From the NCBI GenBank assembly GCA_964016885.1, contig OZ024744.1, positions 113,150,001 to 113,214,000 on the forward strand: a DNA stretch of 64,000 bases, given 5' to 3'. The position numbers and the translations under genes were made by a program. Numbering within the stretch: position 1 is the first letter of the stretch; every line of letters begins with the position of its first letter. Below, in pieces: positions 1 through 57,480 of this stretch. The notes below the pieces were generated by a model. It was not told the origin of the DNA and did no database searches. It saw nothing but the letters and a program-made list of their open reading frames with translations. The DNA is from Eledone cirrhosa (lineage: Eukaryota).

Positions 1-3000
1 ACTTCAATGGTGAAGTCACTGCAGTGTTAGATGTAGTTAAGACTGTCATATATGTTAATGAAACACTTTAATGGTGAAGTCACTGCAGTGTTAGTCATAG
101 TTAAGACAGTCATATATGTTAATGAAACACTTTAATGGTGAAGTCACTGCAGTGTTAGTCATAGTTAAGACAGTCATATATGTTAATGAAACACTTCAAT
201 AGTGAAGTCACTGCAGTGTTAGATGTAGTTAAGACAGTCATATATGTTAATGAGAGACTTCAATGGTGAAGTCACTGCAGTGTTAGACATAGTTAAGACT
301 GTCATATATCCTAATGAGAGACTTCAATGGTGAAGTCACTGCAGTGTTAGATGTTGTTAAGACTGTCATATATCCTAATGAGATACTTCAATGGTGAAGT
401 CACTGCAGTGTTAGTCATAGTTAAGACTGTCATATATGTTAATGAGAGACTTCAATGGTGAAGTCACTGCAGTGTTAGATGTAGTTAAGACAGTCATATA
501 TGTTAATGAAACACTTTAATGGTGAAGTCACTGCAGTGTTAGACATAGTTAAGACAGTCATATATCCTAATGAGAGACTTCAATGGTGAAGTCACTGCAG
601 TGTTAGATGTAGTTAAGACTGTCATATATCCTAATGAGAGACTTCAATGGTGAAGTCACTGCAGTGTTAGACATAGTTAAGACTGTCATATATCCTAATG
701 AGAGACTTCAATGGTGAAGTCACTGCAGTGTTAGATGTAGTTAAGACTGTCATATATCCTAATGAGAGACTTCAATGGTGAAGTCACTGCAGTGTTAGAC
801 ATAGTTAAGACAGTCATATATGTTAATGAGAGACTTCAATGGTGAAGTCACTGCAGTGTTAGACATAGTTAAGACAGTCATATATCCTAATGAGAGACTT
901 CAATGGTGAAGTCACTGCAGTGTTAGACATAGTTAAGACTGTCATATATCCTAATGAGAGACTTCAATGGTGAAGTCACTGCAGTGTTAGACATAGTTAA
1001 GACTGTCATATATCCTAATGAGAGACTTCAATGGTGAAGTCACTGCAGTGTTAGACATAGTTAAGACTGTCATATATCCTAATGAGAGACTTCAATGGTG
1101 AAGTCACTGCAGTGTTAGACATAGTTAAGACTGTCATATATCCTAATGAGAGACTTCAATGGTGAAGTCACTGCAGTGTTAGATGTAGTTAAGACAGTCA
1201 TATATGTTAATGAGAGACTTCAATGGTGAAGTCACTGCAGTGTTAGACATAGTTAAGACTGTCATATATCCTAATGAGAGACTTCAATGGTGAAGTCACT
1301 GCAGTGTTAGACATAGTTAAGACTGTCATATATCCTAATGAGAGACTTCAATGGTGAAGTCACTGCAGTGTTAGACATAGTTAAGACTGTCATATATCCT
1401 AATGAGAGACTTCAATGGTGAAGTCACTGCAGTGTTAGATGTAGTTAAGACTGTCATATATCCTAATGAGAGACTTCAATGGTGAAGTCACTGCAGTGTT
1501 AGACATAGTTAAGACTGTCATATATCCTAATGAGAGACTTCAATGGTGAAGTCACTGCAGTGTTAGATGTAGTTAAGACTGTCATATATCCTAATGAGAG
1601 ACTTCAATGGTGAAGTCACTGCAGTGTTAGACATAGTTAAGACTGTCATATATCCTAATGAGAGACTTCAATGGTGAAGTCACTGCAGTGTTAGATGTAG
1701 TTAAGACTGTCATATATCCTAATGAGAGACTTCAATGGTGAAGTCACTGCAGTGTTAGACATAGTTAAGACAGTCATATATGTTAATGAGAGACTTCAAT
1801 GGTGAAGTTACTGCAGTGTTAGACATAGTTAAGACAGTCATATATGTTAATGAAACACTTTAATGGTGAAGTCACTGCAGTGTTAGTCATAGTTAAGACA
1901 GTCATATATGTTAATGAAACACTTCAATAGTGAAGTCACTGCAGTGTTAGATGTAGTTAAGACAGTCATATATGTTAATGAGAGACTTCAATGGTGAAGT
2001 CACTGCAGTGTTAGACATAGTTAAGACTGTCATATATCCTAATGAGAGACTTCAATGGTGAAGTCACTGCAGTGTTAGATGTTGTTAAGACTGTCATATA
2101 TCCTAATGAGATACTTCAATGGTGAAGTCACTGCAGTGTTAGTCATAGTTAAGACTGTCATATATGTTAATGAGAGACTTCAATGGTGAAGTCACTGCAG
2201 TGTTAGATGTAGTTAAGACAGTCATATATGTTAATGAAACACTTTAATGGTGAAGTCACTGCAGTGTTAGACATAGTTAAGACAGTCATATATCCTAATG
2301 AGAGACTTCAATGGTGAAGTCACTGCAGTGTTAGATGTAGTTAAGACTGTCATATATCCTAATGAGAGACTTCAATGGTGAAGTCACTGCAGTGTTAGAC
2401 ATAGTTAAGACTGTCATATATCCTAATGAGAGACTTCAATGGTGAAGTCACTGCAGTGTTAGATGTAGTTAAGACTGTCATATATCCTAATGAGAGACTT
2501 CAATGGTGAAGTCACTGCAGTGTTAGACATAGTTAAGACTGTCATATATCCTAATGAGAGACTTCAATGGTGAAGTCACTGCAGTGTTAGACATAGTTAA
2601 GACTGTCATATATCCTAATGAGAGACTTCAATGGTGAAGTCACTGCAGTGTTAGACATAGTTAAGACTGTCATATATCCTAATGAGAGACTTCAATGGTG
2701 AAGTCACTGCAGTGTTAGATGTAGTTAAGACAGTCATATATGTTAATGAGAGACTTCAATGGTGAAGTCACTGCAGTGTTAGACATAGTTAAGACTGTCA
2801 TATATCCTAATGAGAGACTTCAATGGTGAAGTCACTGCAGTGTTAGACATAGTTAAGACTGTCATATATCCTAATGAGAGACTTCAATAGTGAAGTCACT
2901 GCAGTGTTAGACATAGTTAAGACTGTCATATATCCTAATGAGAGACTTCAATGGTGAAGTCACTGCAGTGTTAGATGTAGTTAAGACTGTCATATATCCT

Positions 3001-3590
3001 AATGAGAGACTTCAATGGTGAAGTCACTGCAGTGTTAGACATAGTTAAGACTGTCATATATCCTAATGAGAGACTTCAATGGTGAAGTCACTGCAGTGTT
3101 AGATGTAGTTAAGACTGTCATATATCCTAATGAGAGACTTCAATGGTGAAGTCACTGCAGTGTTAGACATAGTTAAGACTGTCATATATCCTAATGAGAG
3201 ACTTCAATGGTGAAGTCACTGCAGTGTTAGATGTAGTTAAGACTGTCATATATCCTAATGAGAGACTTCAATGGTGAAGTCACTGCAGTGTTAGACATAG
3301 TTAAGACAGTCATATATGTTAATGAGAGACTTCAATGGTGAAGTCACTGCAGTGTTAGTCATAGTTAAGACTGTCATATATCCTAATGAGAGACTTCAAT
3401 GGTGAAGTCACTGCAGTGTTAGTCATAGTTAAGACAGTCATATATCCTAATGAGAGACTTCAATGGTGAAGTCACTGCAGTGTTAGTCATAGTTAAGACT
3501 GTCATATATGTTAATGAGAGACTTCAATGGTGAAGTCACTGCAGTGTTAGACATAGTTAAGACAGTCATATATGTTAATGAAACACTTTA
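1..3590. repeat. 64-bp minisatellite, at least ~56 copies (runs off window start)
   Basis: Unit acttcaatggtgaagtcactgcagtgttagacatagttaagactgtcatatatcctaatgagag; identical register at 1 and 961 (15x64); no unique spacers. Confidence 0.98.
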
Positions 3591-4260
3591 ATGCACCTGT
3601 CGGCACTGAATATTTGACCTGGAAAGGAGTGATTGGAAGGAATGGTGACCCCAATCTAAATATGAATGGAGATGCCTTATTAGACTCCTGTTCTGGCAAT
3701 GGACTCTCTATTTTGAACACCTTCTTCCAACACAGAGACATCCGTGGTAGAAGGACAGAGATCAATGATTGATTTTGTTATTGATTTTGTTATTGTCTCT
3801 GATCTCTCTGATTCTGTGCTAGATGTTCATGTTAATGAAGAGGCTGAGCTGTCAACTGATCACCATCTAGTTATTGGCAATTTGAGACTACCTAAAGCCA
3901 AGGAAGCCCACAAAACTAGCAGCCCCAGGACGATCTACAGGATATAGTGGAAAGCATTGGTGGATAAGGAAGTCAGGACCTGGTATACAGATACTATTGC
4001 ATCAAAATTCAGAAAACTCCCTGAGCAAACAGAGAAATGGAATGGAGATTGTTCAGCTTGGTAGTTTCTGCTTCAACTATTAAATGCTATGGGTGAAAGA
4101 GGCTCGGTTTGGCACTGGATGGCAGGAGAACCCTTTGTTCAATCAAGGGGTCAAAAATGCCATCTAAGCGAAAAAGGAGGTTTATAAAGCTTGGCTTGGA
4201 AATAAGTCATTCTTTTGGCACTTGTGGCACTTATAATAAAGAATGAGTGACCAGGGAATA
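3540..4260 (+). mobile_element. Decayed RTE-clade (Rex3/Expander-like) LINE, AP-endonuclease region
   Basis: Frameshifted peptides HFNAPVG..WKGVIGRNGDPNLN..GLSILNTFFQHR and SMIDFVIVS..ELSTDHHLV are EEP endonuclease motifs. Confidence 0.85.
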
Positions 4261-4363
4261 TAACAACCTAATTTTGACATCTTTTTCTGTGTCTCAAGTA
4301 CAGGACTGTACACTCTCTCCAACTCAGTAATGTAGCGTAATTTAGGGTAGTGGTAGTACTTAC

Positions 4364-4435
4364 ATATTTTGATGTTAAACTAGCAGCACTAATGTTGAAG
4401 AATGTAGCGTTAGATTCATTAGCCACAGCTTTTGC
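4364..4435 (-). CDS. SPAST: Spastin exon (72 bp) AKAVANESNATFFNISAASLTSKY
   Basis: Acceptor tgcag| and donor |gtaagt; phase 0-0; near-identical to the spastin AAA domain up to pore loop 1. Confidence 0.95.
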
Positions 4436-7615: not shown

Positions 7616-7690
7616 CAACATGGTTTTACCATTTCCTGGGGGCCCAAAGAGTAATAAACCTCGTGCAGGCGCTCTTAGTCCAGTAAAAAG
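7616..7690 (-). CDS. SPAST: Spastin exon (75 bp) [25 protein letters not shown], Walker A
   Basis: Acceptor ttcag| and donor |gtaagt; Walker A GPPGNGKT; phase 0-0. Confidence 0.97.
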
Positions 7691-9487: not shown

Positions 9488-9542
9488 TATATATCATTAT
9501 TATTATTACTATATATATATGTATGATATATATATATATAGT

Positions 9543-10150
9543 AATAATAATAATGATTTCTTTATTGGCCACAAGGGCTGACATCAAGAAAAACATTACA
9601 GACGGTACAGGACGGTACGATGTGGGTTTTGTTTGCGTAAAGATTTTTATTATTTATATAAGAAAAGAAAAAGACATAGAAACATATATATATATATATA
9701 TAAACAATAAAAATGAAAATTGAAACAATGAAAAATTCCCCAATAGGGGGGGAAACTTCCAAGGGTTACTCGTGGCGAAAATCACACAAAAGACCACGGC
9801 CACCCTGACCACCAGGGCAAGCGCCCTCTCTCAAACTACAGATGTATATTCAGAGCGGTCCCGTTCACTCGGACCATTCTCGCTACATTCACCCACCTTT
9901 CAACAAACTTGCTAGAAGGCAGCACTTGCCTCTCCACCCTGATTTTCCTCTTGAGGTGAAACTTGAAGAGGAAAGTGCCTGTCTTTAACCCTTTCAACCT
10001 TGTCCACCACACAATCTCTTTCGCCATGGCCACCAAGCAGATGAAAACCGCCTGCCCTTCCTCATCGAAGGAAGACGGTGAGACCATCTGCACAATGGAC
10101 TCAGTCGATAACCGGATCAGTCCTACATGCGACAGCAACTGTTCGACATA
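9543..10150 (-). mobile_element. 5'-truncated 3' end of Tx1/L1-like element
   Basis: ORF 9836-10138 aligns with the C-terminus of ORF2 at 40717; shared 3' end aataaagaaatc(att)n. Confidence 0.9.
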
Positions 10151-13100
10151 GGAAAGAATCTCTGAATTGAGAGATCACAGCTCTGATACTATGACATGTG
10201 GTTAGAATGTCTCAGGAAAGAATCTCTGAATTGAGACATCACAGCTCTGATACTATGACATGTGGTTAGAATGTCTCAGGAAAGAATCTCTGAATTGAGA
10301 GATCACAGCTCTGATACTATGACATGTGGTTAGAATGTCGCAGGAAAGAATCCCTGAATTGAGAGATCACAGCTCTGATACTACAGACATGGAGTTAGAA
10401 TGTCTCAGGAAAGAATCTCTGAATTGAGAGACCACAGCTCTGATACTACAGACATGTGGTTAGAATGTCTCAGGAAAGAATCTCTGAATTGAGAGATCAC
10501 AGCTCTGATACTATGTACATGTGGTTAGAATGTCTCAGGAAAGAATCTCTGTATTGAGAGATCACAGCTCTGATACTATGGACATGTGGTTAGAATGTCT
10601 CAGGAAAGAATCTCTGAATTGAGAGACCACAGCTCTGATACTATGACATGTGGTTAGAATGTCTCAGGAAAGAATCTCTGAATTGAGAGACCACAGCTCT
10701 GATACTACAGACATGTGGTTAGAATGTCTCAGGAAAGAATCTCTGAATTGAGAGATCACAGCTCTGATACTACAGACATGTGGTTAGAATGTCTCAGGAA
10801 AGAATCTCTGAATTGAGAGATCACAGCTCTGATACTATGACATGTGGTTAGAATGTCTCGGGAAAGAATCTCTGAATTGAGAGATCACAGCTCTGATACT
10901 ATGACATGTGGTTAGAATGTCTCAGGAAAGAATCTCTGAATTGAGAGATCACAGCTCTGATACTATGACATGTGGTTAGAATGTCTCAGGAAAGAATCTC
11001 TGAATTGAGAGATCACAGCTCTGATACTACAGACATGTGGTTAGAATGTCTCAGGAAAGAATCTCTGAATTGAGAGGTCACAGCTCTGATACTACAGACA
11101 TGTGGTTAGAATGTCTCGGGAAAGAATCTCTGAATTGAGAGATCACAGCTCTGATACTACAGACATGTGGTTAGAATGTCTCAGGAAAGAATCTCTGAAT
11201 TGAGAGATCACAGCTCTGATACTACAGACATGTGGTTAGAATGTCTCAGGAAAGAATCTCTGAATTGAGAGGTCACAGCTCTGATACTACAGACATGTGG
11301 TTAGAATGTCTCGGGAAAGAATCTCTGAATTGAGAGATCACAGCTCTGATACTACAGACATGTGGTTAGAATGTCTCAGGAAAGAATCTCTGAATTGAGA
11401 GGTCACAGCTCTGATACTACAGACATGTGGTTAGAATGTCTCGGGAAAGAATCTCTGAATTGAGAGATCACAGCTCTGATACTACAGACATGTGGTTAGA
11501 ATGTCTCAGGAAAGAATCTCTGAATTGAGAGATCACAGCTCTGATACTATGGACATGTGGTTAGAATGTCTCAGGAATGAATCTCTGAATTGAGAGATCA
11601 CAGCTCTGATACTACAGACATGTGGTTAGAATGTCTCAGGAAAGAATCTCTGAATTGAGAGATCATAGCTCTGATATTATGACATGTGGTTAGAATGTCT
11701 CAGGAAAGAATCTCTGAATTGAGAGATCACAGCTCCAGTACTATGGACATGTGGTTAGAATGTCTCAGGAAAGAATCTCTGAATTGAGAGATCACAGCTC
11801 TGATACTATGACATGTGGTTAGAATGTCTCAGGAAAGAATCTCTGAATTGAGAGATCACAGCTCTGATACTATGACATGTGGTTAGAATGTCTCAGGAAA
11901 GAATCTCTGAATTGAGAGATCACAGCTCTGATACTACAGACATGTGGTTAGAATGTCTCAGGAATGAATCTCTGAATTGAGAGGTCACAGCTCTGATACT
12001 ACAGACATGTGGTTAGAATGTCTCAGGAAAGAATCTGAATTGAGAGATCACAGCTCTGATACTACAGACATGTGGTTAGAATGTCTCAGGAAAGAATCTC
12101 TGAATTGAGAGATCACAGCTCTGATACTATGGACATGTGGTTAGAATGTCTCAGGAAAGAATCTCTGAATTGAGAGATCACAGCTCTGATACTATGGACA
12201 TGTGGTTAGAATGTCTCAGGAAAGAATCTCTGAATTGAGAGATCACAGTTCTGATACTATGGACATGTGGTTAGAATGTCTCAGGAAAGAATCTCTGAAT
12301 TGAGAGATCACAGCTCTGATACTATGACATGTGGTTAGAATGTCTCAGGAAAGAATCTCTGAATTGAGAGATCACAGCTCTGATACTACAGACATGGGGT
12401 TAGAATGTCTCAGGAAAGAATCTCTGAATTGAGAGATCACAGCTCTGATACTATGGACATGTGGTTAGAATGTCTCAGGAAAGAATCTCTGAATTGAGAG
12501 ATCACAGCTCTGATACTACAGACATGGGGTTAGAATGTCTCAGGAAAGAATCTCTGAATTGAGAGATCACAGCTCTGATACTATGTACATGTGGTTAGAA
12601 TGTCTCAGGAAAGAATCTCTGAATTGAGAGATCACAGCTCTGATACTACAGACATGTGGTTAGAATGTCTCAGGAATGAATCTCTGAATTGAGAGGTCAC
12701 AGCTCTGATACTACAGACATGTGGTTAGAATGTCTCAGGAAAGAATCTGAATTGAGAGATCACAGCTCTGATACTACAGACATGTGGTTAGAATGTCTCA
12801 GGAAAGAATCTCTGAATTGAGAGATCACAGCTCTGATACTATGGACATGTGGTTAGAATGTCTCAGGAAAGAATCTCTGAATTAAGAGATCACAGCTCTG
12901 ATACTATGGACATGTGGTTAGAATGTCTCAGGAAGAAATCTCTGAATTGAGAGATCACAGTTCTGATACTATGGACATGTGGTTAGAATGTCTCAGGAAA
13001 GAATCTCTGAATTGAGAGATAACAGTTCTGATACTATGGACATGTGGTTAGAATGTCTCAGGAAAGAATCTCTGAATTGAGAGATCACAGCTCTGATACT

Positions 13101-15250
13101 ATGACATGTGGTTAGAATGTCTCAGGAAAGAATCTCTGAATTGAGAGATCACAGCTCTGATACTACAGACATGGGGTTAGAATGTCTCAGGAAAGAATCT
13201 CTGAATTGAGAGATCACAGCTCTGATACTATGGACATGTGGTTAGAATGTCTCAGGAAAGAATCTCTGAATTGAGAGATCACAGCTCTGATACTACAGAC
13301 ATGGGGTTAGAATGTCTCAGGAAAGAATCTCTGAATTGAGAGATCACAGCTCTGATACTACAGACATGGGGTTAGAATGTCTCAGGAAAGAATCTCTGAA
13401 TTGAGAGGTCACAGCTCTGATACTATGGACATGTGGTTAGAATGTCTCAGGAAAGAATCTCTGAATTGAGAGATCACAGCTCTGATACTACAGACATGTG
13501 GTTAGAATGTCTCAGGAAAGAATCTCTGAATTGAGAGATCACAGCTCTGATACTACAGACATGTGGTTAGAATGTCTCAGGAAAGAATCTCGGAATTGAG
13601 AGATCACAGCTCTGATACTACAGACATGTGGTTAGAATGTCTCAGGAAAGAATCTCTGAATTGAGAGGTCACAGCTCTGATACTATGGACATGTGGTTAG
13701 AATGTCTCAGGAAAGAATCTCTGAATTGAGAGATCACAGCTCTGATACTACAGACATGTGGTTAGAATGTCTCAGGAAAGAATCTCTGAATTGAGAGGTC
13801 ACAGCTCTGATACTATGGACATGTGGTTAGAATGTCTCAGGAAAGAATCTCTGAATTGAGAGATCACAGCTCTGATACTACAGACATGTGGTTAGAATGT
13901 CTCAGGAAAGAATCTCTGAATTGAGAGATCACAGCTCTGATACTACAGACATGTGGTTAGAATGTCTCAGGAAAGAATCTCTGAATTGAGAGGTCACAGC
14001 TCTGATACTATGGACATGTGGTTAGAATGTCTCAGGAAAGAATCTCTGAATTGAGAGGTCACAGCTCTGATACTACAGACATGTGGTTAGAATGTCTCAG
14101 GAAAGAATCTCTGAATTGAGAGGTCACAGTTCTGATACTACAGACATGGAGTTAGAATGTCTCAGGAAAGAATCTCTGAATTGAGAGATCACAGCTCTGA
14201 TACTACAGATATGTGGTTAGAATATCTCAGGAAAGAATCTCTGAATTGAGAGGTCACAGCTCTGATACTACAGACATGTGGTTAGAATGTCTCAGGAAAG
14301 AATCTCTGAATTGAGAGGTCACAGCTCTGATACTATGGACATGTGTTTAGAATGTCTCAGGAAAGAATCTCTGAATTGAGAGGTCACAGCTCTGATACTA
14401 CAGACATGTGGTTAGAATGTCTCAGGAAAGAATCTCTGAATTGAGAGGTCACAGTTCTGATACTACAGACATGGAGTTAGAATGTCTCAGGAAAGAATCT
14501 CTGAATTGAGAGATCACAGCTCTGATACTACAGATATGTGGTTAGAATGTCTCAGGAAAGAATCTCTGAATTGAGAGATCACAGCTCTGATACTACAGAC
14601 ATGTGGTTAGAATGTCTCAGGAAAGAATCTCTGAATTGAGAGATCACAGCTCTGATACTATGTACATGTGGTTAGAATGTCTCAGGAAAGAATCTCTGAA
14701 TTGAGAGGTCACAGCTCTGATACTATGGACATGTGGTTAGAATGTCTCAGGAAAGAATCTCTGAATTGAGAGATCACAGCTCTGATACTATGTACATGTG
14801 GTTAGAATGTCTCAGGAAAGAATCTCTGAATTGAGAGGTCACAGCTCTGATACTATGGACATGTGGTTAGAATGTCTCAGGAAAGAATCTCTGAATTGAG
14901 AGGTCACAGCTCTGATACTACAGACATGTGGTTAGAATGTCTCAGGAAAGAATCTCTGAATTGAGAGGTCACAGTTCTGATACTACAGACATGTGGTTAG
15001 AATGTCTCAGGAAAGAATCTCTGTATTGAGAGGTCACAGCTCTGATACTATGACATGTGGTTAGAATGTCTCAGGAAAGAATCTCTGAATTGAGAGATCA
15101 CAGCTCTGATACTACAGACATGTGGTTAGAATGTCTCAGGAAAGAATCTCTGAATTGAGAGGTCACAGTTCTGATACTACAGACATGTGGTTAGAATGTC
15201 TCAGGAAAGAATCTCTGTATTGAGAGGTCACAGCTCTGATACTATGGACT
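10150..15250. repeat. 64/65-bp minisatellite, ~78 copies
   Basis: Unit ggaaagaatctctgaattgagagatcacagctctgatactacagacatgtggttagaatgtctca, with atgac/atggac/acagac variants. Confidence 0.98.
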
Positions 15251-15480
15251 AGAATGTGATAGGAAAATCTCTGGACAGATTTTACGGGCAAACCAACCAA
15301 CAGGAGACCCAGGGGTAGAGCCCGAGCAAGATGGTTGGATAACATCCATGAGCTTAGCTGGTCATGCTTGAGGATCCAGTCGGATCAGTTGGAGACAGTT
15401 GCTTCTGACAGGATTCACTAGAAGGAGTGGTTGAGGACTCTGCCCCAATGACCTTCAAATGGGAGAAGAAGAATGTATAA
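15250..15480 (+). mobile_element. 3' end of decayed Rex3/Expander-like RTE
   Basis: Reads RRPRGRARARWLDNIHELSWSCLRI, typical of the RTE ORF C-terminus (GRRPRGRPRTRW..). Confidence 0.75.
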
Positions 15481-15509: not shown

Positions 15510-15636
15510 CAACATCATTAAATGCAACTGGTGGGCCTGAATCAACTATCTCATTTAATATGAGGTTAGCCAGTTTTTTGTCAACGTTTTTAAAACTAGC
15601 AGGTAACTGCTTTTCTTTTTTGGGAGAACTTTTCAT
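15510..15636 (-). CDS. SPAST: Spastin exon (127 bp) MKSSPKKEKQLPASFKNVDKKLANLILNEIVDSGPPVAFNDV(A)
   Basis: Acceptor ttgcag| and donor |gtaagt; phase 0-1; matches spastin pre-AAA helix FRNVDSNLANLIMNEIVD. Confidence 0.93.
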
Positions 15637-21653: not shown

Positions 21654-21811
21654 ATCGGGTTGTGACAACTGACGTTTATGAAGCTGCCTTTTAGGTGACA
21701 AAGTTGGACTTTCTTTCAAAGTTGAAGTTGACGTACTTCTAGTTCGGGGCAAAGTGTTGCTCTTGTGCACCAATAATTGGTTTTTGGAAGGCTTCAATGG
21801 CTTCGTTGCAA
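21654..21811 (-). CDS. SPAST: Spastin exon (158 bp) ..ATKPLKPSKNQLLVHKSNTLPRTRS..KRQLSQPD, linker/MTBD region
   Basis: Acceptor ttgtag| and donor |gtaagt; open frame, phase 1-0 in frame with the 15636 exon; SNTLPR motif like spastin SNSLPR. Confidence 0.85.
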
Positions 21812-21889
21812 CTACAAGTACAAAAAATAAGATATTAATGAAGGAGTTGCCTCTAAATGGGACAAATCTGTCTAACCTTTGCTAGTATG

Positions 21890-24800
21890 GAAGTTATGCA
21901 AGATATTGTGTGAGGTAAAGACTTTACTGTGAAAATACAATAGTATATATAGAGTAATGTAAATGTTATGCAAGATATTGTGTGAGGTAAAGACTTTACT
22001 GTGAAAATACAATAGTATATATAGAGTAATGTAAATGTTATGTGAGATATTATGTGAGGTAAAGACTTTACTGTGAAAATACAATAGTATATATAGAGTA
22101 ATGTAAATGTTATGTGAGATATTATGTTAGGTAAAGACTTTACTGTGAAAATACAATAGTATATATAGAGTAATGTAAATGTTATGTGAGATATTATGTG
22201 AGGTAAAGACTTTACTGTGAAAATACAATAGTATATATAGAGTAATGTAAATGTTATGTGAGATATGTTAGGTAAAGACTTTACTGTGAAAATACAATAG
22301 TATATACAGAGTAATGTAAATGTTATGTGAGATATTATGTGAGGTAAAGACTTTACTGTGAAAATACAATAGTATATATAGAGTAATGTAAATGTTATGT
22401 GAGATATTGTGTGAGGTAAAGACTTTATTGTGAAAATACAATAGTATATATAGAGTAATGTAAATGTTATGAGATATTATGTGAGGTAAAGACTTTACTG
22501 TGAAAATACAATAGTATATATAGAGTAATGTAAATGTTTTGTGAGATATTATGTGAGGTAAAGACTTTACTGTGAAAATACAATAGTATATATAGAGTAA
22601 TGTAAATGTTTTGTGACATATTATGTTAGGTAAAGCCTTTACTGTGAAAATACAATAGTATATATAGAGTAATGTAAATGTTATGAGATATTATGTGAGG
22701 TAAAGCCTTTACTGTGAAAATACAATAGTATATATAGAGTAATGTAAATGTTATGTGAGATATTATGTGAGGTAAAGACTTTACTGTGAAAATACAATAG
22801 TATATATAGAGTAATGTAAATGTTATGCGAGATATTATGTGAGGTAAAGACTTTACTGTGAAAATACAATAGTATATATAGAGTAATGTAAATGTTATGT
22901 GAGATATTATGTGAGGTAAAGCCTTTACTGTGAAAATACAATAGTATATATAGAGTAATGTAAATGTTATGTGAGATTATGTGAGGTAAAGACTTTACTG
23001 TGAAAATACAATAGTATATATAGAGTAATGTAAATGTTATGTGAGATATTGTGTGAGGTAAAGACTTTATTGTGAAAATACAATAGTATATATAGAGTAA
23101 TGTAAATGTTATGAGATATTATGTGAGGTAAAGACTTTACTGTGAAAATACAATAGTATATAAACAGTAATGTAAATGTTATGTGAGATATTATGTTAGG
23201 TAAAGTCTTTACTGTGAAAATACAATAGTATATATAGAGTAATGTAAATGTTTTGTGAGATATTATGTGAGGTAAAGACTTTACTGTGAAAATACAATAG
23301 TATATATAGAGTAATGTAAATGTTTTGTGAGATATTATGTTAGGTAAAGCATTTACTGTGAAAATACAATAGTATATATAGAGTAATGTAAATGTTATGA
23401 GATATTATGTGAGGTAAAGCCTTTACTGTGAAAATACAATAGTATATATAGAGTAATGTAAATGTTATGTGAGATATTATGTGAGGTAAAGCCTTTACTG
23501 TGAAAATACAATAGTATATTTAGAGTAATGTAAATGTTATGTGAGATATTATGTGAGGTAAAGACTTTATTGCGAAAATACAATAGTATATATAGAGTAA
23601 TGTAAATATTATGTGAGATATTATGTGAGGTAAAGACTTTATTGTGAAAATACAATAGTATATATAGAGTAATGTAAATATTATGTGAGATATTATGTGA
23701 GGTAAAGACTTTATTGTGAAAATACAATAGTATATACAGAGTAATGTAAATGTTATGTGAGTTATTATGTGAGGTAAAGACTTTACTGTGAAAATACAAT
23801 AGTATATATAGAGTAATGTAAATGTTATGTGAGATATTGTGTGAGGTAAAGACTTTGCTGTGAAAATACAATAGTATATATAGAGTAATGTAAATGTTAT
23901 GTGAGATATTATGTGAGGTAAAGACTTTATTGTGAAAATACAATAGTATAAATAGAGTAATGTAAATGTTATGCGAGATATTATGTGAGGTAAAGCCTTT
24001 ACTGTGAAAATACAATAGTATATATAGAGTAATGTAAATGTTATGTGAGATATTATGTGAGGTAAAGACTTTATTGTGAAAATACAATAGTATAAATAGA
24101 GTAATGTAAATGTTATGTGAGATATTGTGTGAGGTAAAGACTTTACTGTGAAAATACAATAGTATATATAGAGTAATGTAAATGTTATGTGAGATATTAT
24201 GTGAGGTAAAGACTTTACTGTGAAAATACAATAGTATATATAGAGTAATGTAAATGTTATGTGAGATATTATGTTAGGTAAAGCCTTTACTGTGAAAATA
24301 CAATAGTATATATAGAGTTACGTAAATGTTATGTGAGATATTATGTGAGGTAAAGACTTTACTGTGAAAATACAATAGTATATATAGAGTAATGTAAATG
24401 TTATGTGAGATATTATGTGAGGTAAAGACTTTACTGTGAAAATACAATAGTATATATAGAGTAATGTAAATGTTATGTGAGATATTATGTGAGGTAAAGC
24501 CTTTACTGTGAAAATACAATAGTATATATAGAGTAATGTAAATGTTATGTGAGATATTATGTTAGGTAAAGACTTTACTGTGAAAATACAATAGTATATA
24601 TAGAGTAATGTAAATGTTATGTGAGATATTATGTGAGGTAAAGACTTTACTGTGAAAATACAATAGTATATATAGAGTAATGTAAATGTTATGTGAGATA
24701 TTGTGTGAGGTAAAGACTTTATTGTGAAAATACAATAGTATATATAGAGTAATGTAAATGTTATGAGATATTATGTGAGGTAAAGACTTTACTGTGAAAA

Positions 24801-26650
24801 TACAATAGTATATAAAGAGTAATGTAAATGTTATGTGAGATATTATGTTAGGTAAAGACTTTACTGTGAAAATACAATAGTATATATAGAGTAATGTAAA
24901 TGTTTTGTGAGATATTATGTGAGGTAAAGACTTTACTGTGAAAATACAATAGTATATATAGAGTAATGTAAATGTTTTGTGAGATATTATGTTAGGTAAA
25001 GCCTTTACTGTGAAAATACAATAGTATATATAGAGTAATGTAAATGTTATGAGATATTATGTGAGGTAAAGCCTTTACTGTGAAAATACAATAGTATATA
25101 TAGAGTAATGTAAATGTTATGTGAGATATGTGAGGTAAAGCCTTTACTGTGAAAATACAATAGTATATTTAGAGTAATGTAAATGTTATGTGAGCTATTA
25201 TGTGAGGTAAAGACTTTATTGTGAAAATACAATAGTATATATAGAGTAATGTAAATATTATGTGAGATATGTGAGGTAAAGACTTTATTGTGAAAATACA
25301 ATAGTATATATAGAGTAATGTAAATATTATGTGAGATATTATGTGAGGTAAAGACTTTATTGTGAAAATACAATAGTATATACAGAGTAATGTAAATGTT
25401 ATGTGAGTTATTATGTGAGGTAAAGACTTTACTGTGAAAATACAATAGTATATATAGAGTAATGTAAATGTTATGTGAGATATTATGTGAGGTAAAGACT
25501 TTATTGTGAAAATACAATAGTATATACAGAGTAATGTAAATGTTATGCGAGTTATTATGTAAGGTAAAGACTTTACTGTGAAAATACAATAGTATATACA
25601 GAGTAATGTAAATGTTATGTGAGTTATTATGTAAGGTAAAGACTTTACTGTGAAAATACAATAGTATATATAGAGTAATGTAAATGTTATGTGAGATATT
25701 ATGTGAGGTAAAGCCTTTACTGTGACAATACAATAGTATATATAGAGTAATGTAAATGTTATGTGAGATATTATGTGAGGTAAAGCCTTTACTGTGAAAA
25801 TATAATAGTATATATAGAGTAATGTAAATGTTATGTGAGATATTGTGTGAGGTAAAGCCTTTACCATGAAAATATAATTGTTTCTACTTTTGGCACAAGG
25901 CCAGCAATTACCCAGTGCATTTCTGGTACTTTATTTTATCGACCCCGTAAGGATGAAAGGCAAAGTTAACCACGGCAGGATTTGAACTCAGAATGGCAAG
26001 GGCCGTAACTATGCATCAAAGCATGGCGTCCGACCCTCTACCGATACTGCCAATACACCGCATGAAAATACAATAGTATATATAGAGTAATGTAAATGTT
26101 ATGCGAGATATTATGTGAGGTAAAGCCTTTACCATTAAAATACAATAGTATATACAGAGTAATGTAAATGTTATGAGATATTATGTGAGGTAAAGCCTTT
26201 ACTGTGAAAATACAATAGTATATACAGAGTAATGTAAATGTTATGAGATATTATGTGAGGTAAAGCCTTTACTGTGAAAATACAATAGTATATATAGAGT
26301 AATGTAAATGTTATGTGAGATATTATGTGAGGTAAAGATTTACTGTGAAAATACAATAGTAAATATAGAGTAATGTAAATGTTATGTGAGATATTATGTG
26401 AGGTAAAGACTTTATTGTGAAAATACAATAGTATATATAGAGTAATGTAAATGTTATGTGAGATATTATGTGAGGTAAAGCCTTTACTGTGAAAATACAA
26501 TAGTATATATAGAGTAATGTAAATGTTATGTGAGATATTATGTGAGGTAAAGATTTACTGTGAAAATACAATAGTAAATATAGAGTAATGTAAATGTTAT
26601 GCGAGATATTGTGTGAGATAAAGCACTTACTGTGAAAATACAACAGTATA
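21890..26650. repeat. 72-bp AT-rich minisatellite, ~63 copies, interrupted by a SINE
   Basis: Unit gtgaaaatacaatagtatatatagagtaatgtaaatgttatgtgagatattatgtgaggtaaagactttact. Confidence 0.97.
25875..26060 (-). mobile_element. SINE family A inserted in the 72-bp array with a 10-bp TSD
   Basis: catgaaaata at 25865-25874 and 26061-26070. Confidence 0.88.
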
Positions 26651-26829
26651 TATTGAGTAATGATAGCTCTAAAAAGAATTGGTAAAGTGATGGAAGAGCA
26701 GTAATTCTCGTAGAAATATTAAGATGCTGTTTCTGCATGTTTGTTTAAAGTCTAAAGAGTGCTCAACCGAAGGAACCAAATAGTAATAATAAATGTAAAG
26801 ACTAAAATTCGAAGGGGGCTCGAGAAGGA

Positions 26830-44136: not shown

Positions 44137-44171
44137 GTTTAAAATAGAGTGGAAAAGATGGGAAAGACCAC

Positions 44172-46244: not shown

Positions 46245-46564
46245 GTTTTTTTGTTTAAAATGAAATTTTGGGTACAAAACCCCAATAACTGGTTATTTAA
46301 CCCCGAAGGGCCAAATAACGGACAGAAAGACCCCTCTCACGAGGAGGAGGGTGTCTTTATCAACAATTTGGTTCAAGTTTTAAACAATTTACAATTGTTT
46401 TAACGGTTAAAAATTACTATACCTTACAGAGCCGAGCCTCCGTCAACCATGGCATTCAATAATAATAATAATAATAATAATAATAGCAATAATAATAATA
46501 ACGACAACAACAATAATAATATACATATTCATATATATATACACACACACGCACGCACATAAGC

Positions 46565-46610: not shown

Positions 46611-48910
46611 CTAACAGTGCTGCGATCGAATGTGGCTTTTTAGCCCAGCCAATGATCCAAAATGTCTTGCACAGAGTCGGCAACCAAAACATTTACTGGG
46701 AATAGTCGGCTGTGGTTGGAGTTCGTGTACTTTTGCATGTCGCTTGAGTCCTCCTGCTGATTTACATTCTCTACCACATGTTTGGCAAGCATGATGAGTA
46801 GCATCTCCAACAGCAGCCTGGTAGTCAACCACTGGTCTTACTTTATGACTGCGAAGATGACTTTCGAGTCCAGCTTTGCTTAGGCAGAGTCTCGCACAGA
46901 CGCTGCATGTCAGAAACATAGGAGGACCCTCGCCGTCTGGAAGTGCAACAGCAATACCCTTCCTCACGTCCCGCTTTACTTTCTCGTGTGCGATTCGAGA
47001 TGCCTCAAAGGCAACTTTTCCCTCATATACAGTCTTTCTCCATTTATTACGATCAGCAGCAATATTTTCCCATGTATCAGCAGAGATGTTAGCGTCTTTC
47101 AGAGAGGCCTTCAAGGAATCCTTATACCTCTTTTTTGGTTTATGTGGCGGTCGTTTTCCTTTAACCAACTCTCCATAGAAGAGTTGTTTTGGTATTCTAG
47201 AATCCTTCATCCCGGCAAGGTGACCACTCCAACGGAGTCGCTGCTTAAGCACAAGAGCTTCTATACTGTCACACATAGAGCTTTCCAAAATCTCGACATC
47301 ACTGATGTGGTCCCTCCAGCGAACGCCATGTATCCGTCTGAGACACATCTGATGGAAACGCTCCAATTGCTTAAGGTGGCGTCGATATGTGACCCAGGTC
47401 TCGCAGGCATAAAGAAGACAAGAGAGTACACATGCCCTGTACACCCTTACCTTTGTCCTCCTGCATATGTCTCGCCGACCCCAGAGTCGCCTTTCTAGCT
47501 TTCCGAAAGCATCACTTGCTTTCCTAATCCTAAGTGAGATTTCACTGTCAAGGTTGCCGTATCGATTGACAGTGCTTCCCAGGTAGACAAACTGATCAAC
47601 CACTCCAAGTCGTTTGCCATACACATAGATGTTTGGTTCAGTGTACTGCCTACCAGGTGCAGGTTGGTACATGACGACGGTTTTCTTGAGACTGACAGTC
47701 AAACCCAGGGCAGTGCAAGCGTCAGAAAATACATTCAAAATGTGCTGCATATCACTCTCTGTGTGCGCTACAAGATCGCAATCATCTGCATACAAGAGGT
47801 CTCTTATGACTGATGTAAATACTTTTGTCTTCGCAGCAAAGCGCCTGATGTTAAATATGCTGCCTGAGGTTCGATATCGGATGTAAACACCATGCTCGCA
47901 ATTCCTGAATGCAATACAGAAAACCATTGCAAAGTATATGGCAAACAGGGTCGGTGCTGGAATATCCCCCTGTTTCACTCCATTTTTTACTGAGATAGGC
48001 TCCGACATGTTACCTCCGACATTAACCCAAGCCTTCATGTCGTCATGGAAAGACCTAACTAAAGCAAGGAACTTATCAGGGCAACCAAGTTTCTGGAGAA
48101 CCTTCCATAATGCATCTCTGTTGACAGTATCGAAAGCCTTTGTCAGATCGACAAAAACCTGATACAGATCCAAGCCCTGTTCAATGCACTTCTCCTGGAG
48201 CTGTCTAGCTGAGAAGATCATATCAGTAGTGCCGCGTCCAACACGAAAACCAGATTGACTTTCAGGAAGGACACAATCTGCAATGTGTGTCAGCAGACGG
48301 TCCAGAAGCACCCTACATAAAACTTTCCCCACGACAGAAAGCAATGATATACCTCTGTAGTTCCCACAATCATTCCTGTTACCCTTTCCATTGTACAAGA
48401 CCACCATTACTGCATCTCTCCAGTCCTCAGGCACGGATTCATTAGCCCATATCCTTCCAAACAGAGAGTGAAGATGTTGCAGGAGTCTCTCACTACCATA
48501 TTGTAGGAGCTCAGCATGTATGCCATCCATACCTGGAGATCTTCCACTGTTCAGCTTCGAAATAGCCACTGCAACCTCCACAAGTGTCGGAGGCTCTGCG
48601 AGAGCTACTTTCACAGGACTTTCCGGAATGAGATTGAGGAAATCTTCACTGACGACAGACGGCTGATTCAAAAGATCATCAAAGTGCTCCCGCCACCTTC
48701 GTAGAATTCCCTGTGAGTCACGAAGAAGTTCTTTGCCATCCTTGCTGCGAATCGGTGTCACCAGAGAAGAAGACGGTCCATAAACCTCACGCAAGAGACT
48801 GTACAACAGCTTTGTGTTATTGCAATCAGACGCAGTTTGTATCTCACCAGCCTTCTCACTCCACCACTGATCCTTCATCTGAGAAAGACTCCGCCTAACA
48901 CGTGATTTTA
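46611..48910 (-). mobile_element. 5'-truncated young RTE (BovB-like) LINE: uninterrupted RT plus three C-terminal C2H2 fingers
   Basis: [38 protein letters not shown]; no EN domain; the ORF-track extension into the microsatellite (48910-49394) is an artefact. Confidence 0.92.
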
Positions 48911-48971
48911 CAGACATATATATATATATATACACGTGATTATACAGACATATATATATATATATACAGAC

Positions 48972-49002
<31 letters not shown>

Positions 49003-49042
49003 TATATATATATATATACAGACATATATATATATATATATA

Positions 49043-49094
<52 letters not shown>

Positions 49095-49123
49095 CATATA
49101 TATATATATATATATATACAGAC

Positions 49124-49154
<31 letters not shown>

Positions 49155-49234
49155 CATATATATATATATACAGACATATATATATATATACAGACATATA
49201 TATATATATACAGATATATATATATATATATACA

Positions 49235-49280
<46 letters not shown>

Positions 49281-49328
49281 CATATATATATACAAACATA
49301 TATATATATATATATATACAGACATATA
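48911..49328. repeat. (TA)n/CAGAC microsatellite
   Basis: Same interrupted motif as 39760-40303. Confidence 0.9.
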
Positions 49329-49436
49329 TGAATAAAAAAAATGGCAGGCTGTGTGGTTGCAATTAAGTATAATGAAAATAAAAGTTACAGGCAAAAGAGG
49401 GTAATATCCATTGTCAGCTGCTTGCTAGGAATCATA

Positions 49437-50191: not shown

Positions 50192-50235
<44 letters not shown>

Positions 50236-50239
<4 letters not shown>

Positions 50240-51881: not shown

Positions 51882-51921
<40 letters not shown>

Positions 51922-52999: not shown

Positions 53000-53190
53000 A
53001 GATAATTGTTTCTACTTTAGGCACAAGGCCAGCAATTACTCAGTGCATTACTGGTACTTTATTTTATCGACCCCGTAAAGATGAAAGGCAAAGTCAACCT
53101 TGGCGGGATTTGAACTCAGATCGTAAAGGGACGTAACTATGCTGGAAAGCATGGCGTCCGACCCTCTACCGATACTGCCAATTCACCGCC
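53000..53190 (-). mobile_element. SINE family A with TSD
   Basis: ccttattaa(a)ggagataat on both sides. Confidence 0.87.
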
Positions 53191-53262
53191 CTTATTAAAG
53201 GAGATAATGTTAGTTAGAAATACATGAGTTGAGTGATGAATGAAGAATGGCTTATGCTCTAC

Positions 53263-53433
53263 CTGGATGAGGTAAGGATGATGATGAAATTGAATATATG
53301 TTGGGGTGGTGAATAGGGCTAATGACTTGGCTGTTGTCATGTTTTCTTTTCAGTTGTGGAGTCATTGGTATGCCTTTCATCTCACAATTTTCTCGATCCA
53401 TGCCATCCAAGCCAGATACCTTCAATATATTTT
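53263..53433 (-). CDS. SPAST: Candidate spastin exon (171 bp) (E)NILKVSGLDGMDRENCEMKGIPMTPQLKRKHDNSQVISPIHHPNIYSISSSSLPHP(V)
   Basis: Polypyrimidine tract tttccccatttttag|, donor |gtagag (weak); stop-free; phase 1-1 compatible with the 21811 exon; unique sequence amid repeats; no recognisable homology. Confidence 0.5.
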
Positions 53434-53489
53434 CTAAAAATGGGGAAAATATAAAGTTACAAATAAATTAAAAGAAAATTATAATTGTA

Positions 53490-54640
53490 ATAATGATTTC
53501 TTTATAAGCCAGAAAAGGGCTGACATGAAGAAAACATTAAGAACAGCACAGGACAATATAATGTAGGTTTTTCATGTAAAAAGTGTGATAATAGAAAACA
53601 ACAAACAGAAAAATTTAAATTAAGAAAAAATTCCTGAATAGGATGAGACTTCCAAGAGTTACTAATGGAGAAAAAGATAAAAAGATAAAAAGCCATAACC
53701 ACCCTGACCATCAAGGCAAGTTCCACCACCACCACCACCACCAGATGTCCTCCTCCAATTCATTGGTGCACACACAGTAGGACCATTCATTTAGACCATG
53801 CTTGACACTCTCATCCACCTTTCATCAAAGAGAAAAGTGCCTGTTCCCAACTTTTTCAACTGCATCCCCCACACAAGCCCTTTAATCATACCCATCAGGT
53901 AGTTGAAAACTTGCTACACTGCTGCTGCAGTTGTTGGTCCTACTATCAGTGCTATTTGAGCTGTTGTTAGGGCCCTGGTTTGGCAGCATGGAAGGGGTTG
54001 CAGTACCATGTATTTTGTTGAAGTCAGAAAGTACTTAGGTGGTTAGCAATATCACATAAAAGACACTGAGGTCTCTTTCTAAAGCAGCTGAATAACATCT
54101 GGCAAATTATTCAGGTTTTCTGGTTTGATCTGCAACAGGACCTCTAAAGTTATCCTAGTGTAGTTTTCCTGCTGAGTTCTTTTTACATCCAGAAAGGCAT
54201 TGCTCCCCTCACCCACCAGATGTCCAGCTCTAATTGGACATCCAAAATCTTGACTGTTACTGTTCTTAACTAAGACAAAAAAAAGGAACATTATTGCTTC
54301 ATCAGGAACCACAGAATATTTTAGATTAAGACCTTTGCTTCTGAAAAGAATTTCCACACCTCCAAACTGCTTTGCCTTTATGACAAATTCAATGTCGGGC
54401 CATATTTCCTTTAAGGCCCTCTAAATTTGGGCCTTTGGCGTGCTTCGAAGTGTTGGGTTTTAGTGACATGCAGCAATACAGCAGCCTTTTTTTTTTTTTT
54501 TAGCAGTTCCTGCCAATATTTCTAATGGGATGGCTAATCAGGCCCTTCTTTCCTCCATTTTGACCAATTCAGCCAGCTGTGTCCTTGTTCTGCTGGTTTT
54601 GCTCCTGTAAATGTTACTTTTATGGTTGTTGTAAATGTTA
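53490..54640 (-). mobile_element. Old internally deleted Tx1-like element: ORF1 remnant plus 3' end
   Basis: KAQI*RALKEIW..GGVEILF and LEVLLQIKPENLNNLPDVI align to ORF1 EAQIQKALGSVW..TVDVLF and IEMLIQTNQECIEAIPDVI; 3' end ataaagaaatcattatt. Confidence 0.75.
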
Positions 54641-57480
54641 TCATTAGTAATGGTACTAGAACATCTGTTACTATTACTATGTTATCATTAGTAATGGTAC
54701 TGGAACATCTGTTACTATTACTATGTTATCATTAGTAATGATACTGGAACATCTGTTACTATTACTATGTTATCATTAGTAATGGTACTGGAACATCTGT
54801 TACTATTACTATGTTATCATTAGTAATGGTACTGGAACATCTGTTACTATTACTATGTTATCATTAGTAATGGTACTGGAACATCTGTTACTATTACTAT
54901 GTTATCATTAGTAATGGTACTGGAACATCTGTTACTATTACTATGTTATCATTAGTAATGGTACTGGAACATCTGTTACTATTACTATGTTATCATTAGT
55001 AATGGTACTGGAACATCTGTTACTATTACTATGTTATCATTAGTAATGGTACTGGAACATCTGTTACTATTACTATGTTATCATTAGTAATGGTACTGGA
55101 ACATCTGTTACTATTACTATGTTATCATTAGTAATGGTTCTGGAACATCTGTTACTATTACTATGTTATCATTAGTAATGGTACTGGAACATCTGTTACT
55201 ATTACTATGCTATCATTAGTAATGGTACTGGAACATCTGTTACTATTACTATGTTATCATTAGTAATGGTTCTGGAACATCTGTTACTATTACTATGTTA
55301 TCATTAGTAATGGTTCTGGAACATCTGTTACTATTACTATGTTATCATTAGTAATGGTACTGGAACATCTGTTACTATTACTATGTTATCATTAGTAATG
55401 GTACTGGAACATCTGTTACTATTACTATGTTATCATTAGTAGTGGTACTGGAACATCTGTTACTATTACTATGTTATCATTAGTAATGGTTCTGGAACAT
55501 CTGTTACTATTACTATGTTATCATTAGTAATGGTACTGGAACATCTGTTACTATTACTATGTTATCATTAGTAGTGGTACTGGAACATCTGTTACTATTA
55601 CTATGTTATCATTAGTAGTGGTACTGGAACATCTGTTACTATTACTATGTTATCATTAGTAATGGTACTAGAACATCTGTTACTATTACTATGTTATCAT
55701 TAGTAGTGGTACTGGAACATCTGTTACTATTACTATGTTATCATTAGTAATGGTACTGGAACATCTGTTACTATTACTATGTTATCATTAGTAGTGGTAC
55801 TGGAACATCTGTTACTATTACTATGTTATCATTAGTAATGGTACTGGAACATCTGTTACTATTACTATGTTATCATTAGTAATGGTACTGGAACATCTGT
55901 TACTATTACTATGTTATCATTAGTAATGGTACTGGAACATCTGTTACTATTACTATGTTATCATTAGTAATGGTACTGGAACATCTGTTACTATTACTAT
56001 GTTATCATTAGTAATGGTACTGGAACATCTGTTACTATTACTATGTTATCATTAGTAATGGTTCTGGAACATCTGTTACTATTACTATGTTATCATTAGT
56101 AATGGTACTGGAACATCTGTTACTATTACTATGTTATCATTAGTAATGGTACTGGAACATCTGTTACTATTACTATGTTATCATTAGTAATGGTACTGGA
56201 ACATCTGTTACTATTACTATGTTATCATTAGTAATGGTACTGGAACATCTGTTACTATTACTATGTTATCATTAGTAATGGTTCTGGAACATCTGTTACT
56301 ATTACTATGTTATCATTAGTAGTGGTACTGGAACATCTGTTACTATTACTATGTTATCATTAGTAATGGTTCTGGAACATCTGTTACTATTACTATGTTA
56401 TCATTAGTAATGGTTCTGGAACATCTGTTACTATTACTATGTTATCATTAGTAATGGTACTGGAACATCTGTTACTATTACTATGTTATCATTAGTAATG
56501 GTACTGGAACATCTGTTACTATTACTATGTTATCATTAGTAGTGGTACTGGAACATCTGTTACTATTACTATGTTATCATTAGTAGTGGTACTGGAACAT
56601 CTGTTACTATTACTATGTTATCATTAGTAATGGTTCTGGAACATCTGTTACTATTACTATGTTATTAGTAATGGTACTGGAACATCTGTTACTATTACTA
56701 TGTTATCATTAGTAGTGGTACTGGAACATCTGTTACTATTACTATGTTATCATTAGTAGTGGTACTGGAACATCTGTTACTATTACTATGTTATCATTAG
56801 TAATGGTACTAGAACATCTGTTACTATTACTATGTTATCATTAGTAGTGGTACTGGAACATCTGTTACTATTACTATGTTATCATTAGTAATGGTACTGG
56901 AACATCTGTTACTATTACTATGTTATCATTAGTAGTGGTACTGGAACATCTGTTACTATTACTATGTTATTAGTAATGGTACTGGAACATCTGTTACTAT
57001 TACTATGTTATCATTAGTAATGGTACTGGAACATCTGTTACTATTACTATGTTATCATTAGTAATGGTACTGGAACATCTGTTACTATTACTATGTTATC
57101 ATTAGTAGTGGTACTGGAACATCTGTTACTATTACTATGTTATCATTAGTAATGGTACTGGAACATCTGTTACTATTACTATGTTATCATTAGTAATGGT
57201 TCTGGAACATCTGTTACTATTACTATGTTATCATTAGTAATGGTACTGGAACATCTGTTACTATTACTATGTTATCATTAGTAATGGTACTGGAACATCT
57301 GTTACTATTACTATGTTATCATTAGTAGTGGTACTGGAACATCTGTTACTATTACTATGTTATCATTAGTAATGGTACTGGAACATCTGTTACTATTACT
57401 ATGTTATCATTAGTAATGGTTCTGGAACATCTGTTACTATTACTATGTTATCATTAGTAATGGTTCTGGAACATCTGTTC
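54638..57480. repeat. 44-bp minisatellite, ~64 highly homogeneous copies
   Basis: Unit tatgttatcattagtaatggtactggaacatctgttactattac; same register at 54661 and 55321 (15x44). Confidence 0.98.

What the first reader, a model, noticed from the sequence alone, without database searches (positions are those of the whole stretch)
1..57480. Multi-kb minisatellites repeatedly born from retrotransposon coding sequence
Seen: three of four large arrays sit at the edge of, or inside, a LINE remnant, and their unit translates as that LINE's protein in register with the flank (EN motif, RT C-terminus, ORF1 linker). The arrays reach similar copy numbers (~56+, ~78, ~63, ~64) in introns of one gene. Inference: a recurrent process amplifies 44-72 bp pieces of dead LINEs, for example slippage or template jumping during TPRT, rolling-circle amplification or unequal exchange, and inflates these introns.
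Basis: partly seen in the sequence, partly recalled or inferred. Interest (0 to 1): 0.75.

Follow-up and report, generated by a model that had tools for sequence, protein, structure and literature searches.

The report
Minisatellite spreading among dead LINE copies
Four multi-kilobase tandem repeats fill introns of an octopus-like spastin gene; two are pieces of a dead retrotransposon's coding sequence and one comes from a small DNA transposon, such repeats are no more retrotransposon-derived than the genome average, and one of them likely spreads between old retrotransposon copies by DNA-to-DNA copying.

Summary
The four arrays are real and lie in three introns of a spastin gene. A1 (64 bp, 86 copies) and A2 (65 bp, 79 copies) are endonuclease and C-terminal codons of one RTE-like LINE family. 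A3 (72 bp) comes from a MITE-like DNA element. A4's LINE origin is unproven. Complex arrays cover 17-29% of sampled DNA. Copy numbers are not similar (7 to over 360). The sharper result concerns A2. Its junction occurs 21,281 times. Of 73 duplicated LINE copies, 50 lie on three small chromosomes (2.5% of the genome). None lies in 294 Mb of the largest chromosome, which holds 100 unduplicated copies. Units are homogenised between loci (18 of 30 share an identical 56-mer) while flanks are 80% alike. A piece of A1 was copied 6.3 Mb away without a LINE 3' end. Best reading: DNA-level duplication, unequal exchange and copying between loci, not TPRT. The scan noted similar cases on other DNA of this genome. 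A variant of known TE-derived minisatellites; no function shown.

The parts
1..3593 (+). A1: 64-bp minisatellite; 86 copies in all, starting at -1902; the unit is about 21 codons of an RTE-like LINE endonuclease
   Evidence: junction found at 4 loci only
3594..4250 (+). Decayed LINE endonuclease region, collinear right flank of A1
   Evidence: blastx to P0003, E 4e-62 on the collapsed locus; family copies 78-81% alike
4364..4435 (-). spastin exon
   Evidence: tblastn with Octopus spastin
7616..7690 (-). spastin exon (Walker A)
   Evidence: PDB spastin match, 25 of 25 residues
8728..8795 (-). spastin exon (edges approximate)
9541..10149 (-). 3' fragment of an L1/Tx1-like LINE abutting the left edge of A2; the host LINE's own left flank is absent
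   Evidence: sequence read directly, similar to the end of the ORF2 at 40717-44304; the L1/Tx1 label is recalled
10150..15244 (+). A2: 65-bp minisatellite, 79 copies; the unit is the C-terminal motif of the same RTE-like LINE family; member of a dispersed family
15245..15475 (+). LINE 3' end (last codons and GAA-like tail), right flank of A2
15510..15636 (-). spastin exon; its 42 residues are 100% identical to Octopus spastin
21654..21816 (-). spastin exon
21893..26662 (+). A3: 72-bp minisatellite from the 3' part of a short non-coding inverted-repeat element; this copy has neither parent end
25875..26056 (+). SINE-like insertion inside A3
53700..54634 (-). L1/Tx1-like ORF1 remnant of a rare family, joined to a 3'-end fragment; left flank of A4 (edges approximate)
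54635..57479 (+). A4: 44-bp low-complexity minisatellite, 65 copies; no other locus found; LINE origin of the unit unproven

Best explanation
These arrays are products of a genome-wide minisatellite process that draws on LINE coding sequence in proportion to its share of the DNA and likely works by DNA recombination rather than reverse transcription. Shown: A1 and A2 are LINE codons, A3 is part of a MITE-like element, and LINE-derived arrays are not enriched. Inferred step 1: a 44-72 bp piece of an already inserted, decayed element is duplicated once at weak microhomology. Inferred step 2: unequal exchange or conversion within the locus expands it to kilobases in blocks. Inferred step 3: successful units are copied between loci. 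The A2 unit likely enters other old copies of its own LINE through the 65 bp that they share with it (ectopic gene conversion or template switching, or reinsertion of circles), mostly on small chromosomes and chromosome tips. Pieces are sometimes dropped into unrelated DNA, as with the second A1 copy and A3 here. No function is shown; the effect is intron inflation (21% of the spastin span).
For: No enrichment: 14 of 88 against 15.8%. Arrays cover 17-29% of sampled DNA in every group. Unit variants recur in long blocks within A1. A2 junction: 21,281 exact matches, control 0. Duplicated copies with a native left edge: 73, of which 50 on C25-C27 and three on C1/C2, all within 15 Mb of the end. 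Unduplicated copies: 1,956, with 100 listed on C1:14-308 Mb where no duplicated copy lies (expected 3.7, P=0.026). An exact-pattern subsample of unduplicated copies has 0 of 11 on C25-C27. Upstream flanks of duplicated copies are as old as those of single copies (80.2% against 81.6%; 12 and 8 loci) with no diagnostic column, while modal units are 95.6% alike against 87.7%. 18 of 30 duplicated loci and the window (17 of 79 units) hold the same 56-mer; 0 of 21 single copies do; longer arrays are closer to it (rho -0.58). An array-type 16-mer is in 37 of 73 first units (counted by eye) against 7 of 1,956 single copies. A one-base deletion variant was found only at 4 loci of distal C28 among all fetched loci. 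L081 carries A1 units plus about 60 bp of flank with variants absent from the 13 other family copies listed, inverted, 6.3 Mb away, with no LINE 3' end. A3 units are 97% alike across 13 loci while the parent parts are 81% alike across 8.
Against: One shared junction is also what a source element carrying the duplication would leave, and 65-bp go-back joints occur in contigs of all four organisms laid, so the duplication may be old. Short 2-3 unit arrays keep near-ancestral or private units, 2-6.5 differences from the shared type. The flank tree is star-like and cannot exclude one origin (15 rows). Part of the shared unit type can arise by convergent CpG decay. Hints of LINE enrichment exist among big arrays (5 of 16, P=0.095) and on C28 (3 of 7, P=0.03 uncorrected). 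The sample was evenly spaced by hand and over-weights small chromosomes (46 of 80 stretches). The LINE library is incomplete. No exchange event was observed directly.
Confidence: 0.6

Rival explanations
1. A source LINE already carried the 65-bp (and another the 66-bp) duplication and retrotransposed it. Arrays then grew in place where recombination is high and collapsed elsewhere.
For: Identical junction at nearly all 65-bp loci. The A1 junction is shared by two C2 copies, one with an in-frame 66-bp period. Go-back-65 joints in four organisms. Ahmed and Liang give this explanation for LTR12 hotspots (PMC3389668, passages).
Against: No duplicated copy among 100 single copies on C1:14-308 Mb. 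No diagnostic upstream flank column. Units are much younger between loci than flanks, which local growth alone does not predict. It does not explain L081 or the flankless A3.
Confidence: 0.2
2. Each array arose independently at a sequence hotspot; shared junctions and unit types reflect the same microhomology plus convergent CpG decay, with no exchange between loci.
For: Several different periods at the same LINE site. Three of four diagnostic unit columns can be read as CpG decay. Some short arrays repeat locus-private variants (L186).
Against: The ancestral microhomology is only 2-3 exact bases and the junction needs one extra change that is the same everywhere. Exact 56-mer identity at 18 of 30 loci. 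A regional one-base deletion variant. L081.
Confidence: 0.1
3. One reading: the reverse transcriptase slips back and recopies a short stretch during insertion, telomerase-like.
For: Most LINE-derived arrays in the sample come from LINE 3' regions, 5 of 14 events from the A2 site. Several hosts are 5'-truncated at the array.
Against: A MITE-like parent and many non-LINE sequences behave alike. Arrays are 95-97% homogeneous inside hosts that are 10-12% decayed. The tandem state depends on chromosome position. 3' ends are also the commonest LINE part because of 5' truncation (established knowledge).
Confidence: 0.07
4. Array lengths are inflated or created by assembly error.
For: Long near-exact blocks recur within A1. 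Lengths were not checked with long reads.
Against: Arrays have many unit variants and one holds an insertion. Tandem junctions of A2 and A3 appear in independent public contigs.
Confidence: 0.03

Closest known systems
SINE-derived satellites of squamates (Vassetzky et al. 2023, PMC10702118; read: abstract, background, start of results, passages, whole Discussion)
   Same: Tandem units from part of a retroelement with parent sequence left at the ends; many loci; longer arrays more homogeneous within and between loci; subtelomeric bias.
   Different: The parent here is LINE coding sequence and a MITE-like element, and units are shorter (44-72 bp against about 70-290). Flank-versus-unit age and a flankless daughter copy point to a route of spread, which the parts read do not establish.
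Human TE-derived minisatellites (Ahmed and Liang 2012, PMC3389668; read: passages)
   Same: 23% of minisatellites/satellites come from TEs; hotspots inside TE consensus; local expansion after insertion; gene conversion as main force.
   Different: Most human cases have about two units. Here arrays reach kilobases, and one junction has 21,281 copies shared across loci.
Rsp-like spread into 1.688 clusters in Drosophila simulans (Sproul et al. 2020, PMC7403614; read: abstract and passages)
   Same: One rare microhomology junction, then spread to loci that already hold homologous sequence, by interlocus conversion or circles.
   Different: The landing pads here would be dead LINE copies and the invader a piece of that same LINE; circles were not tested here.
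LINE-ORF2- and MITE-derived satellites: chicken HinfI/CR1, Phodopus PROsat, Xenopus Xstir and miDNA4 (review PMC9659126; read: passages)
   Same: Satellite monomers from LINE ORF2 or from inside a MITE.
   Different: Those are single families; here LINE, SINE-like, MITE-like and gene sequences all seed arrays in one genome.

Membership tests
TE-derived minisatellite | Unit matches a transposable element and is single in the parent | tested here: met
   A1 and A2 against P0003; single state at 1,956 loci for A2 and no tandem at the A1 site in 11 of 11 family copies. For A3 the parent is recognised by its ends; a single-unit form was seen only incidentally (L085).
TE-derived minisatellite | Array in register with parent flanks | tested here: inconclusive
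   A1 both sides; A2 right side only; A3 none in the window; A4 not significant.
LINE-specific amplification process | LINE-derived arrays exceed the LINE share of DNA | tested here: not met
   14 of 88 against 15.8%, P=0.53; with tails 22 of 88 against 19.7%, P=0.13.
TPRT-generated tandem duplication | Array as old as its host insertion and independent of location | tested here: not met
RTE-clade LINE (parent of A1 and A2) | Single ORF with AP-type endonuclease and RT | tested here: met
   Relatives at 60% identity are about 1,050-residue EN+RT proteins.
RTE-clade LINE (parent of A1 and A2) | RT phylogeny places it in the RTE clade | not tested
   The RTE label is recalled from motifs; no tree was built.
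piggyBac-type MITE (parent of A3) | Short non-coding element, terminal inverted repeats with CCC...GGG ends, TTAA target site | tested here: met
   Seen in L087 and L096, partly in L091 and L092; the piggyBac label for this signature is recalled.
piggyBac-type MITE (parent of A3) | Autonomous partner with the same ends | not tested
   not searched
Satellite spread by interlocus conversion or circles (Rsp-like model) | One junction at many loci; young units in old homologous flanks; regional sharing of variants | tested here: met
Satellite spread by interlocus conversion or circles (Rsp-like model) | Empty orthologous site in a sister species; extrachromosomal circles | not testable with these tools
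   No related genomes are held; contigs did not span the loci.

The most novel reading that the evidence does not exclude
A homing minisatellite: a 65-bp piece of a LINE, once duplicated, uses the thousands of dead copies of that LINE as landing sites and converts them into arrays, each a new donor. It spreads epidemically over small chromosomes and chromosome tips without any encoded enzyme.
Probability: 0.35. Interest if true: 0.62.

Novelty: new variant of a known kind. Interest (0 to 1): 0.33.

Why it matters
How minisatellites start and reach new loci is still open. Here the same LINE site exists in about 2,000 single and at least 73 duplicated copies, with old flanks as internal clocks, so source-element inheritance, recurrent birth and interlocus copying become separable by orthologue comparison. 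It also suggests that about a fifth of the sampled DNA in this octopus-like genome is complex minisatellite, which bears on intron size and repeat annotation. I found no paper on cephalopod TE-derived minisatellites in the listings of six searches; most subscription journals are not covered. The headline claim of a LINE-specific birth process does not hold.

Tried and rejected
LINE enrichment: rejected. Similar copy numbers: rejected. A 60-72 bp period preference: 21 of 119 arrays, with the 40-49 bp bin the largest; no null model was run. A1 and A2 as two halves of one LINE insertion: rejected, since three spastin exons lie between them. A4 unit as ORF1 linker: not significant. Flank tree of tandem against single copies: star-like and uninformative. 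The downstream identity (0.70) is distorted by deleted tails; one search gives 85.8% against 82.7%. Laying public contigs on the left edge of A3 to find an empty site: no spanning piece. Contig depth over the A2 unit was high in two organisms and not in two, but the tool says depth is no copy number, so it is not used. Sequence look-up in earlier findings returned nothing. Supplements of the papers were not opened.
Full report
Setting. The window is G000:C28:113150001-113214000 in a 3.0-Gb animal assembly. One exon of 42 residues is identical to Octopus spastin, and another matches PDB spastin at 25 of 25 residues. tblastn places 14 exons of this minus-strand gene between 78,716 and -24,260 in window coordinates; the first exons were not found in the 204 kb examined. 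A1, A2 and A3+A4 occupy three introns. Complex arrays make up 21,689 of 102,976 bases (21%) of that span.

Observation. TRF confirms the four arrays. With neighbouring DNA, A1 extends to -1902 and has 86 copies. Collapsed to one unit, A1 reads on both sides as the endonuclease of a LINE whose intact relatives are about 1,050-residue EN+RT proteins at 60% identity. The A2 unit is residues 966-986 of the same relative and continues into the LINE 3' end. Its left side abuts an unrelated L1/Tx1-like fragment. A3 has no LINE match. It is at 30 or more loci at 95-99% identity, and 8 of 12 fetched loci carry the left part of a short inverted-repeat element with CCC...GGG ends and TTAA-like sites. The window copy has neither end. 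A4 lies beside an ORF1 remnant of a rare family, but its unit is low in complexity and does not align significantly (194 of 1000 shuffles as high).

Is it LINE-specific? I fetched 80 stretches of 10 kb at evenly spaced positions of my choosing: 20 on C1, 46 on C22-C27 and 14 on C28. Arrays with period 20 or more, at least 3 copies, at least 85% matches and not low in complexity cover 21%, 17% and 29% of these groups, and 26% of the 204-kb neighbourhood. After collapsing arrays and merging same-family arrays within a stretch (119 arrays, 88 events), 14 events were LINE-coding against 15.8% of non-tandem bases (P=0.53). One of the 14 is probably a low-complexity false positive. An earlier scan note (e1-10330994) places the 48-bp family in a LINE tail, so I added tails: 22 of 88 against 19.7%, P=0.13. 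Against this null: 5 of 16 arrays of 1.5 kb or more are LINE-coding (P=0.095), and 3 of 7 on C28 (P=0.03 uncorrected). The MITE-like parent of A3 gave 9 events from a 1.3% share, but that library was chosen after seeing the arrays.

A2 is a dispersed family. All 11 best matches to the A2 edge carry the same 65-bp tandem, but that query was biased. With the downstream part alone, 6 of 29 copies are tandem (periods 65, 99, 123), 15 are single and 8 lack the anchor. The junction has 21,281 exact matches, control 0. With exact patterns, 73 copies have a native left edge followed by the junction and 1,956 are unduplicated; arrays that lost the left edge, like the window's, are missed. Of the 73, 50 lie on C25-C27 (75.5 Mb, 2.5% of the assembly) and three on C1/C2, all near the end. 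None lies on C1:14-308 Mb, where 100 single copies are listed (expected 3.7, P=0.026). A subsample of single copies has 0 of 11 on C25-C27.

Young units in old hosts. For the first 30 of the 73 loci, the 12 with at least 150 bp of LINE upstream are 80.2% alike, as are single copies (81.6%, 8 of 21 usable), with no diagnostic column. Modal units are 95.6% alike against 87.7% for the same stretch in single copies. Eighteen of 30 loci, and 17 of 79 window units, hold one identical 56-mer; 0 of 21 single copies do, and longer arrays are closer to it. A derived 16-mer is in 37 of 73 first units (counted by eye) and 7 of 1,956 single copies. A one-base deletion variant was seen only at four loci of distal C28. 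Under neutral turnover within a locus, an array's consensus should drift as fast as its flank (inference from standard theory), so exchange between loci is needed. A3 shows the same pattern: units 97% alike over 13 loci, parent parts 81% alike over 8.

A direct daughter. The A1 junction exists at four loci only (77 matches). One of them, 6.3 Mb away and inverted, has 12 A1 units plus about 60 bp of flank with variants found in the window but in none of 13 other family copies listed. It sits in unrelated DNA with no LINE 3' end. This is DNA-level copying, not retrotransposition. The two C2 loci share the junction inside full LINE context, and another array at the same site has a different junction and a 56-bp period.

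Mechanism. Shown: parentage of A1-A3, no LINE enrichment, position dependence, homogenised units in old flanks, a flankless daughter. Inferred: a first duplication at weak microhomology, block-wise growth by unequal exchange (repeated variant blocks), and spread by ectopic conversion or circle reinsertion. These last two routes cannot be separated here. The main rival is a source LINE that carried the duplication. It is supported by the uniform junction, by near-ancestral short arrays, and by go-back-65 joints in contigs of four organisms (4, 6, 1 and 9 contigs in the best row). The two readings can both be partly true: an old junction with later homogenisation.

Known context. TE-derived minisatellites, hotspots within TEs, MITE- and ORF2-derived satellites, subtelomeric homogenised SINE satellites and homology-seeded satellite spread are all in print (PMC3389668, PMC9659126, PMC10702118, PMC7403614; what was read is stated under Closest known systems). 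An Octopus vulgaris repeat paper was searched by term and showed no treatment of such arrays in the passages returned (PMC13282606). Earlier scan notes on other DNA of this genome reach similar readings. I looked at them after forming my reading, and they are not independent evidence.

Verdict. The features are real; the LINE-specific and TPRT readings are not supported. The remaining interest lies in the A2 family as a testable case of a minisatellite spreading among dead copies of its own parent. Interest 0.33; new variant of a known kind.

Noticed in passing
window 40717-46292 (-): An L1/Tx1-like LINE with open ORF1 (706 codons stop to stop) and ORF2 (1195 codons; EN, RT, zf-RVT by Pfam), apparently intact and young, in the 45-kb spastin intron.
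   Followed up: partly
window 46611-49424 (-): An RTE-like RT ORF that stays open into C-terminal C2H2 zinc fingers (Pfam).
   Followed up: no
window 25867-26056 and L091:3309-3400: The same SINE-like element joins the 72-bp unit at the same base and orientation in two arrays on different chromosomes; either shared by copying or a target preference.
   Followed up: partly
L129, L166, L178, L082, L090: A 61-bp array family that reads as the C-terminal codons of a CR1/L2-like LINE (label recalled); one array has over 140 units.
   Followed up: partly
L132, L145, L153: Arrays from the C-terminal region of other RTE-like families, homologous or adjacent to the A2 site.
   Followed up: no
L134, L179, L180: 80-84 bp arrays that look like C2H2 zinc-finger coding repeats (by eye).
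   Followed up: no
L089 and L095, left of the 72-bp array: The 72-bp array is fused to the end of another repeated element; 1.5 kb of left flank is 91% alike between C28 and C8.
   Followed up: no
L113 (C1:280.00-280.01 Mb), L158: GC-rich higher-order arrays of 227/196-bp and 54/172-bp units, unlike the other minisatellites.
   Followed up: no
genome-wide: Strong strand imbalance of the A2 junction (4,899 against 16,382), suggesting one or a few very large arrays.
   Followed up: no
window 58380-58800 (+): A decayed fragment resembling the restriction-like endonuclease end of an R4/Dong-type LINE (recalled motif, by eye); this family was not in my LINE library.
   Followed up: no
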